Source of the DNA: a bacterium
GTDB lineage: Bacteria > UBA10199 > 2-02-FULL-44-16 > JAAZCA01
DNA length: 64,000 nucleotides
Direction: 5' to 3'
Assembly: GCA_963674695.2 (NCBI GenBank)
Contig: CAXXGI010000003.1
Span: forward strand, 1,013,064-1,077,063
This document shows positions 6,492 through 49,156 of this stretch, one piece after another. Under the pieces are notes generated by a model. It saw nothing but the letters and a program-made list of their open reading frames with translations, was not told the origin of the DNA and did no database searches. How positions within the stretch are numbered: the first letter of the stretch is position 1; each line of letters starts with the position of its first letter. Made by a program: the position numbers and the translations under genes.

Positions 6492-6502
6492 TGCCGTACG
6501 TT

Positions 6503-6616
6503 GGTTCGTCGGTTCGATAGTTCGACGGTTCGTCGGTTACGGCAGTTCAACTACATGTTATAGCGATCAAGATCGATCGAACCATCGAACCATCGAACCA
6601 TCGAACCATCGAACCA
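6503..6616. repeat. Inverted 8-nt word arrays: (GGTTCGNN)x5 ... (CGAACCAT)x5
   Basis: 6503-6541 reads ggttcgtc ggttcgat agttcgac ggttcgtc. 6578-6616 carries 5 tandem cgaaccat units ending 2 nt before the ATG of the next gene. The two blocks are reverse complements. Confidence 0.9.
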
Positions 6617-6618
6617 AC

Positions 6619-7173
6619 ATGAACAATTACCACACGCTCTTGAATAAAGTAGACCACTTCGTCGCTGAGATCCGTGCACGGCATCCGGAATCGTTCGTGT
6701 GCGCACCCGGATGTGCCGAGTGTTGTGTAGCGGGCATCACCGTCTGGCGCATCGAGTTCGAGTCTGTGCGTCTCGCGTCTCGCGATGCGCGTCTGACGAA
6801 AGCCCCTCCTTCCCGCTGCCCCCTCCTCGACTCCGATGGTCGCTGCACCATCTATGACGCGCGTCCCATCGTCTGCCGCCTCTGGGGCGCGCCGCTCCTC
6901 TTCCCCTCCGACATCGACCGGAACGACAACACGTCGCTGCACCATGCAAACGAAACCCGCCTCGATTCGGATGATGCCACACTCACCTGCTGCCGCCTCA
7001 ACTTCACCGAACCGCCGACGCTCGCCCAACTGCTCCCCTCCGACCTCATCAACGTCGAGACGGTGCTCACGACACTGGCGGCGATCAACCACGTCTACTG
7101 TCGGAAAAAGGGATTCGATCCGAACGAACGCCTCGCGCTGAACGCCCTCGATGCAGCTCCATTCCCATCCTGA
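6619..7173 (+). CDS. YkgJ-family (UPF0153) cysteine-cluster protein
   Basis: CAPGCAECC...CPLLDSDGRCTIYDARPIVCRLW matches the CxxCxxCC / C-x-I-Y-x-x-RP-x-x-CR signature of the YkgJ Zn/Fe-chelating family. Confidence 0.8.
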   Translation: MNNYHTLLNKVDHFVAEIRARHPESFVCAPGCAECCVAGITVWRIEFESVRLASRDARLTKAPPSRCPLLDSDGRCTIYDARPIVCRLWGAPLLFPSDIDRNDNTSLHHANETRLDSDDATLTCCRLNFTEPPTLAQLLPSDLINVETVLTTLAAINHVYCRKKGFDPNERLALNALDAAPFPS

Positions 7174-46664: not shown

Positions 46665-46730
46665 CTCGTGAGATGGTGAGATGGCTGAATGGTGAGATGG
46701 CGAAATCGGGAGATCGCGTGATCGCTCAAT
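46664..46730. repeat. (GTGAGATGG/CTGAATGG) word array after hypE
   Basis: The sequence is tgactcgtgagatggtgagatggctgaatggtgagatggcgaaatcgggagatcgcgtgatcgctcaatcg and includes the hypE stop. Confidence 0.85.
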
Positions 46731-46779: not shown

Positions 46780-47550
46780 ATGCTGAAGAGATCCCTCATT
46801 ATCGTGCTTTTACTCGTCGCCGTTCCCGTTGCGGCATGGGCGGCGTTTCCGAAACCGACCGGGTTTGTGAACGATTTTGCAAAGGTCCTGCCGGTCCCGA
46901 TGAAGGCAAAGCTGAATACGCTCCTGGGTAACTTCGAACGACAAACGGGCATCGAGGTGGCCGTGGCCACCCTGCCGACGCTGAATGACGAACCGATCGA
47001 GAACGTCGCGGTGACTCTCTTCGCCCAATGGGGCATCGGAAAGAAGGGGAAGGATAACGGCGTCCTCTTCCTCGTCGTGCCGAGCGAGAAACGCATGCGC
47101 ATCGAGGTGGGCTACGACCTCGAAGGGGCGATCAATGATGCCCTCGCCGGCCGCATCCTCGACGAGGTCGTCATCCCGCGTTTTCGCGCCGGCAACATCC
47201 CGAACGGCATCGCTGCAGGGACACTGGCCATCGTCGACACGATCAATCGCAAAGAGAATCTGGGCTTCGATGTAAAGGCAGCGGCCAGCGCCCTTCCGAT
47301 CTCACGTGCGCCCGTGCGCAAAAAGAGCGGGCCGTTGCAAACGGCCGGAAAAGTCCTGGTACTGTTGGTCCTAGCCTTTCTCTTCATCCGACATCCTCGG
47401 CTCCTGCTCCTGTTGATGCTCTTCGGCGGCGGCAGAGGTTCAGGACGCGGTTTTGGTGGCGGGGGATCCGGCGGCTTCGGCGGTGGTGGTGGTTTCGGCG
47501 GCTTTGGCGGCGGGCTCTCCGGCGGCGGCGGCGCGTCGAGGGGATGGTAG
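46780..47550 (+). CDS. TPM-domain (YgcG-like) membrane protein with Gly-rich tail
   Basis: Signal/TM segment, then FVNDFAKVL..., GIEVAVATLPTL and GVLFLVVPSEKRMRIEVGYDLEG, which are typical TPM blocks. The C-terminus has a TM helix and a (GGGF)n tail. Confidence 0.85.
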   Translation: MLKRSLIIVLLLVAVPVAAWAAFPKPTGFVNDFAKVLPVPMKAKLNTLLGNFERQTGIEVAVATLPTLNDEPIENVAVTLFAQWGIGKKGKDNGVLFLVVPSEKRMRIEVGYDLEGAINDALAGRILDEVVIPRFRAGNIPNGIAAGTLAIVDTINRKENLGFDVKAAASALPISRAPVRKKSGPLQTAGKVLVLLVLAFLFIRHPRLLLLLMLFGGGRGSGRGFGGGGSGGFGGGGGFGGFGGGLSGGGGASRGW

Positions 47551-48281
47551 AAAGGGGAATGACGATGACTCCGTATGATCTTACACATGAACTCGAACGC
47601 CTCTACGGCGATGACCTCCGGGCGGTGGTCCTCTATGGCGCCGATACCGGCAGCACCGCCAAGAAGAAAACCCGTTTTTCCGACAGCAATATCTTCTGCG
47701 TGCTCTCCGACCCCTCCCCCGCCATGCTCGCGCGCGCGAATCCGGTGCTCAAAAAATGGGCCCGCAAGGGCAACCGCCTGCCGCACTTCTTCGGGCCTAC
47801 GCACATCGAGACCTCGCTCGATATCTTCCCGCTCGACTTCCTCGAGATCCAGGATCGGCACGAGGTCCTGCTGGGGCAGGATCCGTTGGCAGCGATCGAA
47901 GTCGACGCCCAGAACCTGCGGCATCAGTGCGAGAGCGAGCTGAAGGGAAAGCTCATCCATCTGCGCGCCTTCTATGCCGGCAACTACCATAAACCAAAGC
48001 GCGTTGCCGAGCTGATGGCCCAATCCTTCTCCGACTTCATCGCCGCCTTTCGGGGCATACTGCGCCTGCTGCAGGAGACGCCGCCGAAGGACGACCGCGC
48101 CGTCATCGACCGTCTCTCCCAGCAACTTGACTTCAACCCCGAGATCTTTTTTGATGTCCTGGCCCTGCGTGACGGCGAAACGCCGCTGCCACGCGGAGAT
48201 GATGCCCTCTCAGCATTTGAACGCTACATCACCGAAATCGAAGCGATCACGACGTATGTGGATCAATTGACCGTTCGATAG
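47544..48281 (+). CDS. Hypothetical protein, possibly degenerate Pol-beta-type nucleotidyltransferase fold
   Basis: LRAVVLYGADTG...SDSNIFCVL loosely resembles the GS-x(n)-D-x-D NTase motif, but the acidic residues are not conserved. A start at 47565 (RBS GGGGA) is equally possible. The last codons and the stop lie in a repeat array. Confidence 0.55.
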   Translation: MVERGMTMTPYDLTHELERLYGDDLRAVVLYGADTGSTAKKKTRFSDSNIFCVLSDPSPAMLARANPVLKKWARKGNRLPHFFGPTHIETSLDIFPLDFLEIQDRHEVLLGQDPLAAIEVDAQNLRHQCESELKGKLIHLRAFYAGNYHKPKRVAELMAQSFSDFIAAFRGILRLLQETPPKDDRAVIDRLSQQLDFNPEIFFDVLALRDGETPLPRGDDALSAFERYITEIEAITTYVDQLTVR

Positions 48282-48307
48282 TTCGATGGTTCGTCAGTTC
48301 GATGGTT
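48273..48307. repeat. (GTTCGATG)x4 word block
   Basis: The sequence is gttcgatagttcgatggttcgtcagttcgatggtt. It is the reverse complement of the array at 48349-48472. Confidence 0.9.
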
Positions 48308-48348
48308 TTATGGAACTTGACTTTTGTCGTGCAGAGTTGATCCTTCGT

Positions 48349-48472
48349 AACCATCGAACCATCGAACCATCGAACCATCGAACCATCGAACCATCGAACC
48401 ATCGAACCATCGAACCATCGAACCATCGAACCATCGAACCATCGAACCATCGAACCATCGAACCATCGAACC
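48349..48472. repeat. Perfect tandem array, 15.5 x AACCATCG (8-nt unit)
   Basis: 124 nt with no interruption. It ends directly at the GGAGG RBS of lemA (ATG 48483). Confidence 0.97.
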
Positions 48473-48482
48473 GGAGGAACAC

Positions 48483-49121
48483 ATGAAAAAAACACTCATC
48501 GTCATCGGTATCATCGTCTTTATCATCCTGGCCATCGGCTCGAGCTTCGCGGGCAAATACAACGGGCTCGTCTCGCTGCGCGAAAACGTCACCACCTCCT
48601 GGGCACAGGTCGAGAACGTCCTGCAGCGGCGTAACGACCTGATCCCGAACCTCGTGAACACCGTCAAGGGGTATGCGGCGCACGAGCAGAAGGTCTTCAT
48701 CGACGTCACCAAGGCGCGTGCGCGCGTTGGCGGAGCCACCACGATCCCGGAGAAGGTCGCGGCGAACAACCAGCTCACCGCTGCCCTGGGGCGACTGCTC
48801 GTCGTCTCGGAGCGCTATCCGGAGCTCAAGGCCAATCAGAACTTCCTGGCCCTGCAGGACGAACTGGCCGGGACGGAGAACCGCATCGCGGTGGAGCGCC
48901 GCCGCTATAACGAAGCGGTGCGCGCCTACAACACCTCGGTGCAGGTCTTCCCCACCAACGTCATCGCCGGCATCTTTGGGTTTGAGCGCCAGAGCGTCTA
49001 CTTCAAGGCGGATGAAGCGGCAAAGACCGCACCCAAGGTCGATTTCAACACGGCACCGCCTCCGACCCAGCCCGCCCCCGAACAGCCGGCCGCGGCACCG
49101 GCCGCACCACCTGCGGAATAA
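48483..49121 (+). CDS. lemA: LemA family protein
   Basis: N-terminal TM helix, then YNGLVSLRENVTTSWAQVENVLQRRNDLIPNLV and ELKANQNF..LQDEL, which are canonical LemA blocks. Confidence 0.92.
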   Translation: MKKTLIVIGIIVFIILAIGSSFAGKYNGLVSLRENVTTSWAQVENVLQRRNDLIPNLVNTVKGYAAHEQKVFIDVTKARARVGGATTIPEKVAANNQLTAALGRLLVVSERYPELKANQNFLALQDELAGTENRIAVERRRYNEAVRAYNTSVQVFPTNVIAGIFGFERQSVYFKADEAAKTAPKVDFNTAPPPTQPAPEQPAAAPAAPPAE

Positions 49122-49125
49122 ATAC

Positions 49126-49156
49126 AAAAGCCGGGGCGCATCGCCCCGGCTTTTTC
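49126..49156. terminator. Bidirectional rho-independent terminator
   Basis: AAAAGCCGGGGCG-CAT-CGCCCCGGCTTTTT, between convergent genes. Confidence 0.85.

What the first reader, a model, noticed from the sequence alone, without database searches (positions are those of the whole stretch)
48273..48472. Perfect 15.5-copy 8-nt tandem array abutting the lemA ribosome-binding site, with an opposed 4-copy block upstream
(AACCATCG)x15.5 runs for 124 nt with no mismatch and stops exactly at the GGAGG of lemA. Forty nucleotides upstream, (GTTCGATG)x4 in the opposite orientation overlaps the stop codon of the preceding gene. Perfect identity across 15 units argues for recent or ongoing expansion or homogenisation. 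An 8-nt unit is not a multiple of 3, and the array sits in a 5' leader. Slipped-strand gain or loss would therefore change leader length and the register or extent of a hairpin near the RBS, which is a plausible contingency (phase-variation-like) switch. The array has no spacers and so is not a CRISPR.
Basis: partly seen in the sequence, partly recalled or inferred. Interest (0 to 1): 0.6.

Follow-up and report, generated by a model that had tools for sequence, protein, structure and literature searches.

The report
Genome-wide octamer repeat, not lemA switch
The perfect 15.5-unit, 8-base repeat in front of lemA is real, but it is one arm of a small palindromic repeat element that, with about 200 similar 7- to 9-base arrays, fills the gaps between genes all over this uncultured bacterium's genome, so it is an ordinary member of a known repeat class and not a switch built for lemA.

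Summary
(AACCATCG)x15.5 at 48349-48472 is perfect and ends at the GGAGG of a true LemA gene. An imperfect opposed block, 48273-48307, covers the upstream stop codon.

The array is not specific to lemA. The 3.03-Mb genome has 191 period-7 and 65 period-8 arrays of at least 3 copies, against 10 and 5 in a Markov control. They are enriched in co-directional spacers and depleted from divergent ones.

Six loci, including gatA-gatB and kamA-kamD, share the design imperfect arm, ~40-nt core, arm, downstream gene; five carry a long or perfect arm.

Ninety of 219 arrays end within 25 nt of a start codon. The arm next to the start lacks start and stop codons, while the stop-side arm carries them; 55 of 67 opposed pairs have this polarity and 5 the reverse.

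Predicted RBS accessibility is flat from 1 to 25 units. Arms show no locus-specific compensation. Sister genus G001 has another unit at the same spacer, consistent with chance co-occupancy.

Closest known are the Xanthomonas and Nostoc heptamer SSRs, cyanobacterial STRR and Beggiatoaceae TAACTGA repeats.

Verdict: a new member of a known kind, of low to moderate interest.

The parts
47559..48281 (+). Upstream gene of 240 aa (245 aa from the alternative ATG at 47544), conserved but with no Pfam family. Its TAG stop (48279-48281) lies inside the first repeat unit of the 5' arm.
   Evidence: The same gene directly precedes lemA in most relatives.
48273..48307 (+). 5' arm: 4.4 imperfect units GTTCGATA GTTCGATG GTTCGTCA GTTCGATG GTT. 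This is the G/T-rich orientation that carries ATG and stop codons.
   Evidence: (TRF 74% matches).
48313..48352 (-). Diverged copy of a ~40-nt core (consensus GGTTACAGCGTTTCnATTCnATGnTAGAGCGTCAAG) shared by six octamer elements in the genome. Here it is inverted relative to transcription, and its last 4 nt overlap the first unit of the array.
   Evidence: nhmmer E 4e-4 for this copy, which was part of the model; E 6e-9 to 3e-7 for the other five.
48349..48472 (+). 3' arm: (AACCATCG)x15.5, perfect. This is the C/A-rich orientation with no start or stop codon in any frame.
48473..48477 (+). Shine-Dalgarno GGAGG of lemA, 5 nt before the ATG at 48483.
   Evidence: Relatives also have GGAGG or GGAG at this position.
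48483..49121 (+). lemA (212 aa, PF04011).
49126..49154 (.). GC-rich palindromic hairpin flanked by an A-run and a T-run. It is a terminator-like site usable from both strands and ends the co-directional cluster hypE-TPM-orf240-lemA.
6499..6616 (+). Sister element in the same window: imperfect arm 6499-6538, core 6535-6574 and perfect (ATCGAACC)x5.1 at 6576-6616, ending 2 nt before the next ATG.

Best explanation
The array is the expanded 3' arm of a small palindromic short-tandem-repeat element, made of an imperfect (GTTCGNNG)n arm, a ~40-nt core and a (CATCGAAC)n arm. The element lies in the spacer between a conserved 240-aa gene and lemA.

It belongs to a genome-wide, lineage-typical population of about 200 intergenic 7-9 nt tandem arrays. 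These are long simple-sequence repeats of the STRR kind.

The arrays arise and grow in place by replication slippage, which is inferred. They persist where they do little harm, mainly in spacers between co-directional genes.

Selection filters their orientation. The arm next to a start codon is the strand version without ATG, GTG, TTG or stop codons. The arm next to the upstream stop is the version that contains them.

Because ancestral spacers were short, 10-50 nt in most relatives, an array that grows in one ends up touching both the stop codon and the RBS. That is why this array 'stops exactly at GGAGG'.

For lemA the practical effect is a longer leader or intercistronic spacer that can fold into a sliding-register stem-loop. 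Unit number is probably variable but close to neutral for lemA expression.
For: Shown:
- There are 191 period-7 and 65 period-8 arrays of at least 3 copies, against 10 and 5 in a Markov control whose longest arrays are 4.3 and 3.8 copies.
- 71-74% of them are intergenic, against 17.6% of the genome.
- 172 of 218 lie in co-directional spacers (p 1e-12) and only 19 in divergent ones (p 6e-10).
- 80 of 219 have at least 2 reverse-complement units within 200 nt, against 4 of 219 for a control word.
- Six loci share the core and the arm design, and they lie between unrelated genes including gatA-gatB and kamA-kamD.
- 90 of 219 arrays end within 25 nt of a start codon.
- Orientation rule: start-proximal units carry start codons in 12 of 90 cases, against 52 of 90 for their reverse complements (p 9e-8). 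Stop-proximal units carry stops in 53 of 81 cases, against 10 (p 2e-8).
- Annotation-free polarity: 55 pairs against 5 (p 1e-11), and the longer arm lies downstream in 39 against 19 (p 0.012).
- The unit is absent from 40 relatives.
- Sister genus G001 has 170 arrays per Mb with other units, and (ACGTACTA)x7.5 abuts GGAGG at its lemA.
- Array occupancy of 51 orthologous spacers is statistically independent between the two genera: 8 shared against 6.7 expected, p 0.55.
- Most relatives have a 10-50 nt repeat-free spacer at this position.
- RBS accessibility is flat with unit number.
- There is no locus-specific arm compensation.

Published parallels: PMC4692102 and PMC4679880.
Against: - No reads or strains could be examined, so slippage and near-neutrality are inferred and not observed.
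- The strong positional and polarity rules, and arrays that replace a Shine-Dalgarno before real start codons (52 of 90, including gatB), could instead mean the arrays have a positive role in translation initiation.
- The conserved ~40-nt core in five loci is not explained by slippage alone. It implies either dispersal of an element or a constrained site.
- Gene calls come from my own simple caller. The polarity test does not depend on them.
- The folding model is equilibrium-only.
Confidence: 0.75

Rival explanations
1. Contingency or 'rheostat' locus. Slippage changes the unit number in the lemA 5' leader, and this tunes or switches LemA synthesis, as the AGAT repeat does in the Moraxella catarrhalis uspA2 5' UTR.
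For: A perfect 15.5-unit array is mechanistically slippage-prone (established knowledge). It lies directly before the RBS. The upstream arm can pair with the RBS-proximal units, and the flanks can pair across the AUG in the minimum-energy fold. The precedent is cited in PMC4679880.
Against: The same design occurs at about 90 start-proximal sites, including housekeeping operons. Predicted GGAGG accessibility is 0.32-0.43 for 1-25 units. The minimum-energy structure has an ensemble frequency of 0.0002. No promoter spacer or reading frame is involved. LemA is not a typical phase-variable surface antigen (own knowledge). Relatives mostly lack any repeat here.
Confidence: 0.07
2. Functional post-transcriptional elements used genome-wide. 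The opposed arms would form intercistronic stem-loops that stabilise, process or insulate segments of polycistronic mRNA. In addition or instead, the codon-free C/A-rich 3' arm would act as an unstructured standby or binding platform that supports translation initiation, sometimes without a Shine-Dalgarno. This is MacGregor's hypothesis for TAACTGA repeats.
For: Enrichment in co-directional, transcribed spacers. 37% of arrays have an opposed partner. The fold z-score is -5.1. Polarity is strict. The longer arm lies downstream in 39 cases against 19. Only 38 of 90 start-proximal arrays keep an SD-like motif, against 60% of all genes, and verified starts such as gatB have none. Relatives carry other hairpin elements in the same lemA spacer.
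Against: Many different units coexist and turn over between genera, which does not fit one sequence-specific binding partner. Arm complementarity within a locus is no better than between loci. Occupancy of orthologous spacers is independent between genera. The polarity rule is equally explained by purifying selection against upstream start and stop codons. No expression data exist.
Confidence: 0.15
3. Miniature mobile element. The core plus inverted arms would be a MITE- or REPIN-like unit that was copied to six sites, and the lemA copy would be one insertion whose arm later expanded.
For: Five cores are about 75-90% alike and always flanked by the same arm family, in either orientation relative to transcription.
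Against: There are only six copies. No target-site duplication or transposase partner was identified, though this was not searched exhaustively. The lemA core is strongly diverged (E 4e-4 although it was in the model). Most of the other ~200 arrays have no such core. The core ends resemble degenerate repeat units.
Confidence: 0.1
4. Assembly artefact: the unit number or the perfection of the array would be produced by the assembler.
For: Tandem arrays are hard to assemble, and no reads could be checked.
Against: The array is only 124 nt long and lies inside a 1.09-Mb contig of a 3-contig, 100%-complete genome. Dozens of comparable arrays exist, with consistent flanks.
Confidence: 0.02

Closest known systems
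Heptameric intergenic SSRs of Xanthomonas (GGGAATC) and Nostoc (GGGGAYT), Rehm et al. 2015, PMC4692102
   Same: Hundreds of 7-nt-class tandem arrays, about 90% intergenic and mostly between co-directional ORFs, with only 7-8% between divergent ORFs (8.7% here). There are many convergent inverted pairs able to form stem-loops, 70-75 cases. Strand choice depends on position relative to the ORFs. Length differs between close species, and most arrays are transcribed.
   Different: Here many unrelated units of 7, 8 and 9 nt coexist instead of one G-rich unit. The units are not G-quadruplex formers. Six octamer loci share a ~40-nt core. Occupancy is not conserved between genera, whereas 83% is conserved between Xcc and Xac.
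TAACTGA direct repeats of marine Beggiatoaceae, MacGregor 2015, PMC4679880
   Same: Heptamer-class arrays concentrated in 'forward' orientation within a few nucleotides of start codons, often in place of a canonical RBS. Some overlap the end of the upstream ORF. There is no functional theme among the downstream genes, which include essential ones.
   Different: BOGUAY has a single unit, 2-6 copies per set and only one inverted repeat. Here there are many units, up to 30 copies, and 37% have opposed partners. The lemA copy keeps a canonical GGAGG.
Cyanobacterial STRR (short tandemly repeated repetitive heptamers; Mazel et al. 1990) and long SSRs of 5-11 nt (Mrazek et al. 2007)
   Same: Genome-wide tandem heptamer-class repeats, sporadic across phyla, attributed to polymerase slippage. 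This is taken from one search, which summarises Mrazek 2007, and from my own knowledge for Mazel 1990.
   Different: A different lineage (uncultured 'Deltaproteobacteria'-labelled MAG group), different units, and octamers as well as heptamers.
uspA2 5'-UTR AGAT repeat of Moraxella catarrhalis (Attia and Hansen 2006, as cited in PMC4679880)
   Same: A tandem repeat between promoter and start codon whose copy number could modulate expression.
   Different: That repeat is a single-locus tetranucleotide before a surface protein of a host-adapted pathogen, with strain-dependent copy number shown. Here the repeat belongs to a genome-wide family, has no predicted dependence on copy number, and no polymorphism data exist.
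REP/BIME and REPIN-type extragenic palindromes
   Same: Dispersed intergenic imperfect palindromes, frequent inside operons, able to form mRNA stem-loops. PMC3116915 was listed but not read; the comparison rests on my own knowledge.
   Different: The arms here are tandem arrays of a 7-9 nt unit and not a fixed palindrome. No RAYT-type partner was sought.

Membership tests
Long simple-sequence repeats / STRR-like intergenic tandem repeats | Head-to-tail repeats of a 5-11 nt unit, longer than expected by chance | tested here: met
   15.5 perfect units. The Markov control reaches at most 3.8 copies for period 8.
Long simple-sequence repeats / STRR-like intergenic tandem repeats | Many arrays of recurring units dispersed over the genome, mainly intergenic | tested here: met
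   256 period-7 or period-8 arrays of at least 3 copies, 71-74% intergenic. There are 21 TRF rows for the AACCATCG unit itself.
Long simple-sequence repeats / STRR-like intergenic tandem repeats | Unit number differs between strains or species (slippage) | not testable with these tools
No same-species contigs were found. Between genera the units themselves differ.
Inverted-pair heptamer SSRs (Xanthomonas type) | Two arrays of the same unit in convergent orientation close together | tested here: met
   The 5' arm 48273-48307 faces the 3' arm 48349-48472. Genome-wide, 80 of 219 arrays have a partner, against 4 of 219 for the control.
Start-codon-proximal heptamer repeats (Beggiatoaceae TAACTGA type) | Forward-oriented array ending within a few nt of a start codon or RBS | tested here: met
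   The array ends 10 nt before the ATG, directly at GGAGG. 90 of 219 arrays end within 25 nt of a start codon.
Start-codon-proximal heptamer repeats (Beggiatoaceae TAACTGA type) | The unit is TAACTGA | tested here: not met
   The unit is AACCATCG. It resembles the class only and is not a member.
Phase-variable contingency locus (SSR-mediated) | Repeat lies in a coding frame or between the -35 and -10 boxes, so that unit changes switch expression | tested here: not met
   The array is outside any gene and no promoter-like site spans it.
Phase-variable contingency locus (SSR-mediated) | Unit-number heterogeneity within populations | not testable with these tools
Phase-variable contingency locus (SSR-mediated) | Expression depends on unit number | tested here: inconclusive
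   In silico only: P(unpaired GGAGG) is 0.32-0.43 for 1-25 units. No experiment was done.
CRISPR array | Repeats of about 24-48 nt separated by unique spacers | tested here: not met
   The 8-nt units are contiguous, with no spacers.
Known RNA families (Rfam 15) | Match to a curated covariance model | tested here: not met
   No hit at E up to 10 in 48150-48560.
MITE/REPIN-like mobile palindrome | Dispersed copies with a conserved internal sequence and inverted ends | tested here: inconclusive
   Six copies of a ~40-nt core with inverted octamer arms. Target-site duplications and a mobilising enzyme were not examined.

The most novel reading that the evidence does not exclude
In this uncultured lineage the codon-free 3' arms of the repeat elements would be working translation-initiation leaders, acting as standby or enhancer platforms that can replace a Shine-Dalgarno, as before gatB and the BcrAD-type ATPase. 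The 5' arm and core would form an intercistronic insulator hairpin. The strict polarity (55 pairs against 5) and the downstream bias of the long arm would then be the footprint of a genome-wide, repeat-based system for setting translation of distal operon genes, with unit number as a slowly drifting tuning knob.
Probability: 0.12. Interest if true: 0.65.

Novelty: new member of a known kind. Interest (0 to 1): 0.3.

Why it matters
The result removes a tempting false lead. A perfect repeat touching an RBS looks like a phase-variation switch, but here it is the local face of a genome-wide repeat population.

The broader pattern has modest value. It extends the heptamer/octamer SSR phenomenon, known from Xanthomonas, cyanobacteria and giant sulfur bacteria, to an uncultured 'Deltaproteobacteria'-labelled group.

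It also gives a clean, annotation-free polarity rule and examples of arrays that abut verified start codons without a Shine-Dalgarno. Those examples could serve to test whether such repeats are neutral passengers or translation leaders.

For annotation, it warns that ORFs read through these arrays are artefacts, and that spacer length in this lineage is repeat-driven.

Tried and rejected
Exact-protein look-ups for LemA and the upstream protein found nothing. An exact scan of metagenome contigs for the array-RBS-lemA junction found nothing. A scan for three units found 73 contigs, none of them a close relative.
- Single-protein search for related loci found no relative. The alignment-based scan gave named but only distant MAGs.
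- Rfam found no family.
- The sigma-70 promoter and intrinsic-terminator scan found nothing in the spacer. My hand-reading of TTGACT (48318-48323) as a -35 box has no acceptable -10 partner, so I rejected it.
- Positional conservation as a sign of function. The lemA spacer is occupied in both G000 and G001, but across 51 orthologous spacers co-occupancy is at chance. Rejected.
- Hairpin maintained by compensatory change. Within-locus complementarity is not better than cross-locus. Rejected as evidence for a selected hairpin.
- Coding potential of the array. The ORFs 48286-48486(+) and 48247-48495(-) consist of repeat-encoded peptides and overlap real genes. I treated them as artefacts.
- CRISPR was rejected because there are no spacers.
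- Homology of the G000 and G001 units. ACCATCGA and ACCAACGT match at 6 of 8 positions in the best of 16 registers. My estimate is p about 0.07, which is not convincing.

Full report
**Observation.** The window sequence and Tandem Repeats Finder confirm (AACCATCG)x15.5 at 48349-48472. It is 124 nt long, with 100% matches and no indels. GGAGG (48473-48477) follows immediately, and then the ATG at 48483 of a 212-aa ORF. That ORF is a bona fide LemA (PF04011, E 1e-62) and aligns from Met1 with relatives. The opposed block at 48273-48307 exists and covers the TAG stop (48279-48281) of the preceding gene. It is imperfect: GTTCGATA GTTCGATG GTTCGTCA GTTCGATG GTT (74% matches). A 3rd-order Markov copy of the genome yields no period-8 array above 3.8 copies, so the array is not a chance feature.

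**The array is one of many.** One search already shows dozens of 7-9 nt arrays in the window, several with the same unit. In the whole 3.03-Mb, 58.6% GC, 3-contig genome TRF finds 348 period-7 and 176 period-8 rows. After de-duplication, 191 period-7 and 65 period-8 arrays have at least 3 copies, against 10 and 5 in the Markov control. A few units recur: ACGAGTC in 42 arrays, AACGGTG in 25, AACTCGT in 23 and AACCATCG in 21. Using my own codon-usage gene caller, 71% of period-7 and 74% of period-8 arrays are intergenic, against 17.6% of the genome. Of 218 non-coding arrays with both neighbours called, 172 lie between co-directional genes (56% of intergenic bases, p 1e-12) and only 19 between divergent genes (25% of bases, p 6e-10). 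The lemA array ranks 6th by copy number and is the 5th longest perfect array.

**Anatomy: a composite palindromic element.** Eighty of the 219 arrays have at least two reverse-complement units within 200 nt; a reversed-word control gives 4. Lining up all AACCATCG-family loci showed that six of them share a ~40-nt core between the arms, GGTTACAGCGTTTCnATTCnATGnTAGAGCGTCAAG. An nhmmer search finds exactly these six copies and nothing else. The lemA copy (window 48313-48352, minus strand) is the most diverged. Each of the six has an imperfect mixed arm (GTTCGTCG, GTTCGATG, GTCCGATG) on one side. In five the other arm is long or perfect: x10, x9, x5, (CGAACTAT)x23 and x15.5 at lemA. At C1:857479 both arms are short. 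At lemA the expanded arm is on the GGTTAC side of the core; in the other loci it is on the TCAAG side. So the expansions happened independently and in place after the elements were established. The six elements lie between unrelated genes: gatA-gatB; lysine 2,3-aminomutase and lysine 5,6-aminomutase alpha; a transporter fusion and a BcrAD/BadFG ATPase; an amidohydrolase and a PLP enzyme; an ApbE-like gene and a CxxC protein (window 6499-6616); and orf240-lemA.

**Position and polarity rules.** Ninety of the 219 arrays end within 25 nt of a start codon. In co-directional spacers, 72 of 172 end 0-19 nt before the start and 60 of 172 begin within -20 to +9 nt of the upstream stop. Only 38 of the 90 keep an SD-like motif, against 60% of all genes, and many run to within 0-7 nt of the ATG. 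Pfam N-terminal alignments confirm three such starts: GatB_N profile position 2 at residue 7, BcrAD_BadFG position 1 at residue 4, and Lys-AminoMut_A position 1 at residue 6.

Orientation is strongly non-random. Start-proximal units carry a start codon on the sense strand in 12 of 90 cases, whereas their reverse complements would in 52 of 90 (sign test 9e-8). The same holds for stop codons (18 against 53, p 5e-6). Stop-proximal units carry stops in 53 of 81 cases against 10 (p 2e-8).

Polarity of an opposed pair reads the same from either strand, so it can be scored without any annotation. In 55 of 67 pairs the codon-bearing, G/T-rich arm is the 5' arm. In 5 it is the 3' arm, and 7 are equal (p 1e-11). 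The longer arm lies downstream in 39 co-directional cases against 19 (p 0.012). Only 14 arrays touch a called start codon, so start-calling does not create the bias. The lemA element, with its stop- and ATG-bearing short arm, core, long codon-free arm and RBS, is a textbook instance.

**Relatives.** Forty related genomes were searched. Most keep the order orf240, then lemA, with a 10-50 nt spacer without repeats. Some carry other hairpin-type elements there (L006, L010, L011, L013). G001, from the same family but another genus, carries (ACGTACTA)x7.5 abutting GGAGG, with an opposed GTACGTTG block. The unit AACCATCG (3 units, at most 1 mismatch) occurs 35 times in this genome and never in the 40 relatives. 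A 300-kb sample of G001 has 170 period-7 or period-8 arrays per Mb, against 115 here. Its units are different, and its octamer loci show the same opposed-arm design. G013, in the same order, has 40 per Mb, all short.

Among 51 co-directional spacers conserved between G000 and G001, 19 hold an array in G000, 18 in G001 and 8 in both. The expectation for both is 6.7 (Fisher p 0.55). The repeat habit is therefore lineage-wide, but units and occupied sites turn over fast, and the shared occupancy of the lemA spacer is compatible with chance. Named relatives are only uncultured MAGs labelled 'bacterium' or 'Deltaproteobacteria bacterium'. Three exact units of AACCATCG occur in 73 metagenome contigs of 36-68% GC, with arrays up to 43 units. 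None is a close relative.

**Testing the proposed switch.** The spacer folds better than shuffles (-82.5 kcal/mol, z -5.1), with the 5' arm paired to array units. The minimum-energy structure has an ensemble frequency of 0.0002, because the 4-unit arm can pair in many registers. In partition-function models with 0-25 units, the mean unpaired probability of GGAGG is 0.32-0.43 for every n from 1 to 25. For SD through AUG it is 0.32-0.42, and 0.40-0.42 from n = 2. So no periodic or threshold behaviour appears.

No sigma-70-like promoter or intrinsic terminator lies in the spacer, and Rfam has no match. The array is neither in a frame nor in a promoter spacer. Arm complementarity within a locus is not better than between loci of the same family (-1.21 against -1.30 kcal/mol/nt, n = 36, Wilcoxon 0.02 in the opposite direction). 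There is thus no sign that individual hairpins are maintained by compensatory change.

**Mechanism, with steps marked.**
- Shown: membership in a genome-wide array population; the composite-element anatomy; the positional and polarity rules; the fast turnover; and the flat predicted RBS accessibility.
- Inferred: arrays grow by replication slippage. Support comes from the many perfect long arrays (12 of the 27 with at least 8 copies), the independent expansion of different arms, and published views summarised.
- Inferred: arrays persist in transcribed spacers where they are tolerated.
- Inferred: purifying selection against upstream start codons and misplaced stops sets the orientation.
- Inferred: because the ancestral spacer was short, an array growing in it necessarily abuts both the stop codon and the RBS.
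- Inferred: the effect on lemA is a longer, sliding-register structured leader with little dependence on unit number.

**Comparison with known systems.** The closest system is the Xanthomonas/Nostoc heptamer SSR class (PMC4692102). It shows about 90% intergenic location, a co-directional bias, 7-8% between divergent ORFs, 70-75 inverted pairs, length differences between close species, and mostly transcribed arrays. The Beggiatoaceae TAACTGA repeats (PMC4679880) share the concentration just upstream of start codons, often without an RBS, and the lack of a functional theme among downstream genes. A Nostoc preprint reports heptamer repeats near start codons with modest regulatory effects (10.1101/2022.06.06.494920).

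What differs here is the coexistence of many 7-, 8- and 9-nt units, the six-copy core-bearing octamer element, and non-conserved occupancy between genera. The uspA2 AGAT repeat is the one tested precedent for a 5'-UTR repeat rheostat (cited), but none of its defining evidence is available here.

**Verdict.** The slippage inference is reasonable. The lemA-specific contingency switch is not supported. This is a new member of a known kind, already recognised in this genome by earlier notes, which my tests agree with and extend. Interest is low to moderate. The residual novelty lies in the polarity rule and in arrays that stand in for Shine-Dalgarno sites before verified start codons.

Noticed in passing
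L007, L008, L009, L011, L015, L019, L020 (last ~45 nt of the gene upstream of lemA); window 48228-48256 for the equivalent site: Relatives of very different GC content keep TTGACA-N17-TAGnTT inside the codons for ..YLTEL..IT.FVD. Leu-Thr is always TTG ACA. This looks like a conserved lemA promoter embedded in the upstream gene. This genome has ATCACC-N17-GACGTA there, so the site appears lost, and lemA may depend on read-through from hypE-TPM-orf240.
   Followed up: partly
genome C1:822697-822734, C1:984869-984907, C1:857479-857517, C2:761970-762007, window 6535-6574 and 48313-48352: A ~40-nt core (GGTTACAGCGTTTCnATTCnATGnTAGAGCGTCAAG) occurs exactly six times, always between opposed octamer arms. 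It contains two AGCGT half-sites about 21 nt apart. It is not explained by slippage, so it may be a binding site or the remnant of a small mobile element.
   Followed up: partly
genome C1:822736-822816 (gatB), C1:984909-984992 (BcrAD/BadFG ATPase), window 6576-6621: Perfect octamer arrays run to within 1-6 nt of verified start codons with no Shine-Dalgarno motif, including before the essential gatB. Genome-wide, 52 of 90 start-proximal arrays lack an SD-like motif.
   Followed up: partly
L133-L205 (metagenome contigs): The same octamer AACCATCG/GGTTCGAT forms arrays of up to 43 units in 73 unrelated contigs of 36-68% GC. Contigs from Ga0213839 and the OWNT01 seawater assembly carry 7-9 further 7-9 nt arrays each. 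GGTTCGA is also the tRNA T-arm consensus (own knowledge, untested), which could seed such arrays repeatedly.
   Followed up: no
L007 about 1285-1350 (G001, stop region of the gene upstream of lemA): A ~33-nt direct duplication (gaccatgtgaatattcaagtggtacgttggt x2) includes the upstream gene's stop codon and the first repeat units. It shows larger-scale duplication acting on these spacers as well.
   Followed up: no
window 49126-49154: A perfect GC-rich palindrome flanked by AAAA and TTTT lies between the convergent lemA and the lipoprotein gene. It looks like a bidirectional intrinsic terminator.
   Followed up: no
window 47559-48278: The 240-aa gene between the TPM-domain gene and lemA has no Pfam family but is syntenic with lemA across the order. 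It may be an uncharacterised partner of the LemA/TPM module.
   Followed up: no
window 46668-46725: The hypE-TPM spacer is likewise filled by octamer arrays (GTGAGATG and GAGATCGC types) that start 4 nt after the hypE stop. Every spacer of the hypE-TPM-orf240-lemA cluster except the overlapping TPM/orf240 junction is therefore repeat-filled.
   Followed up: no
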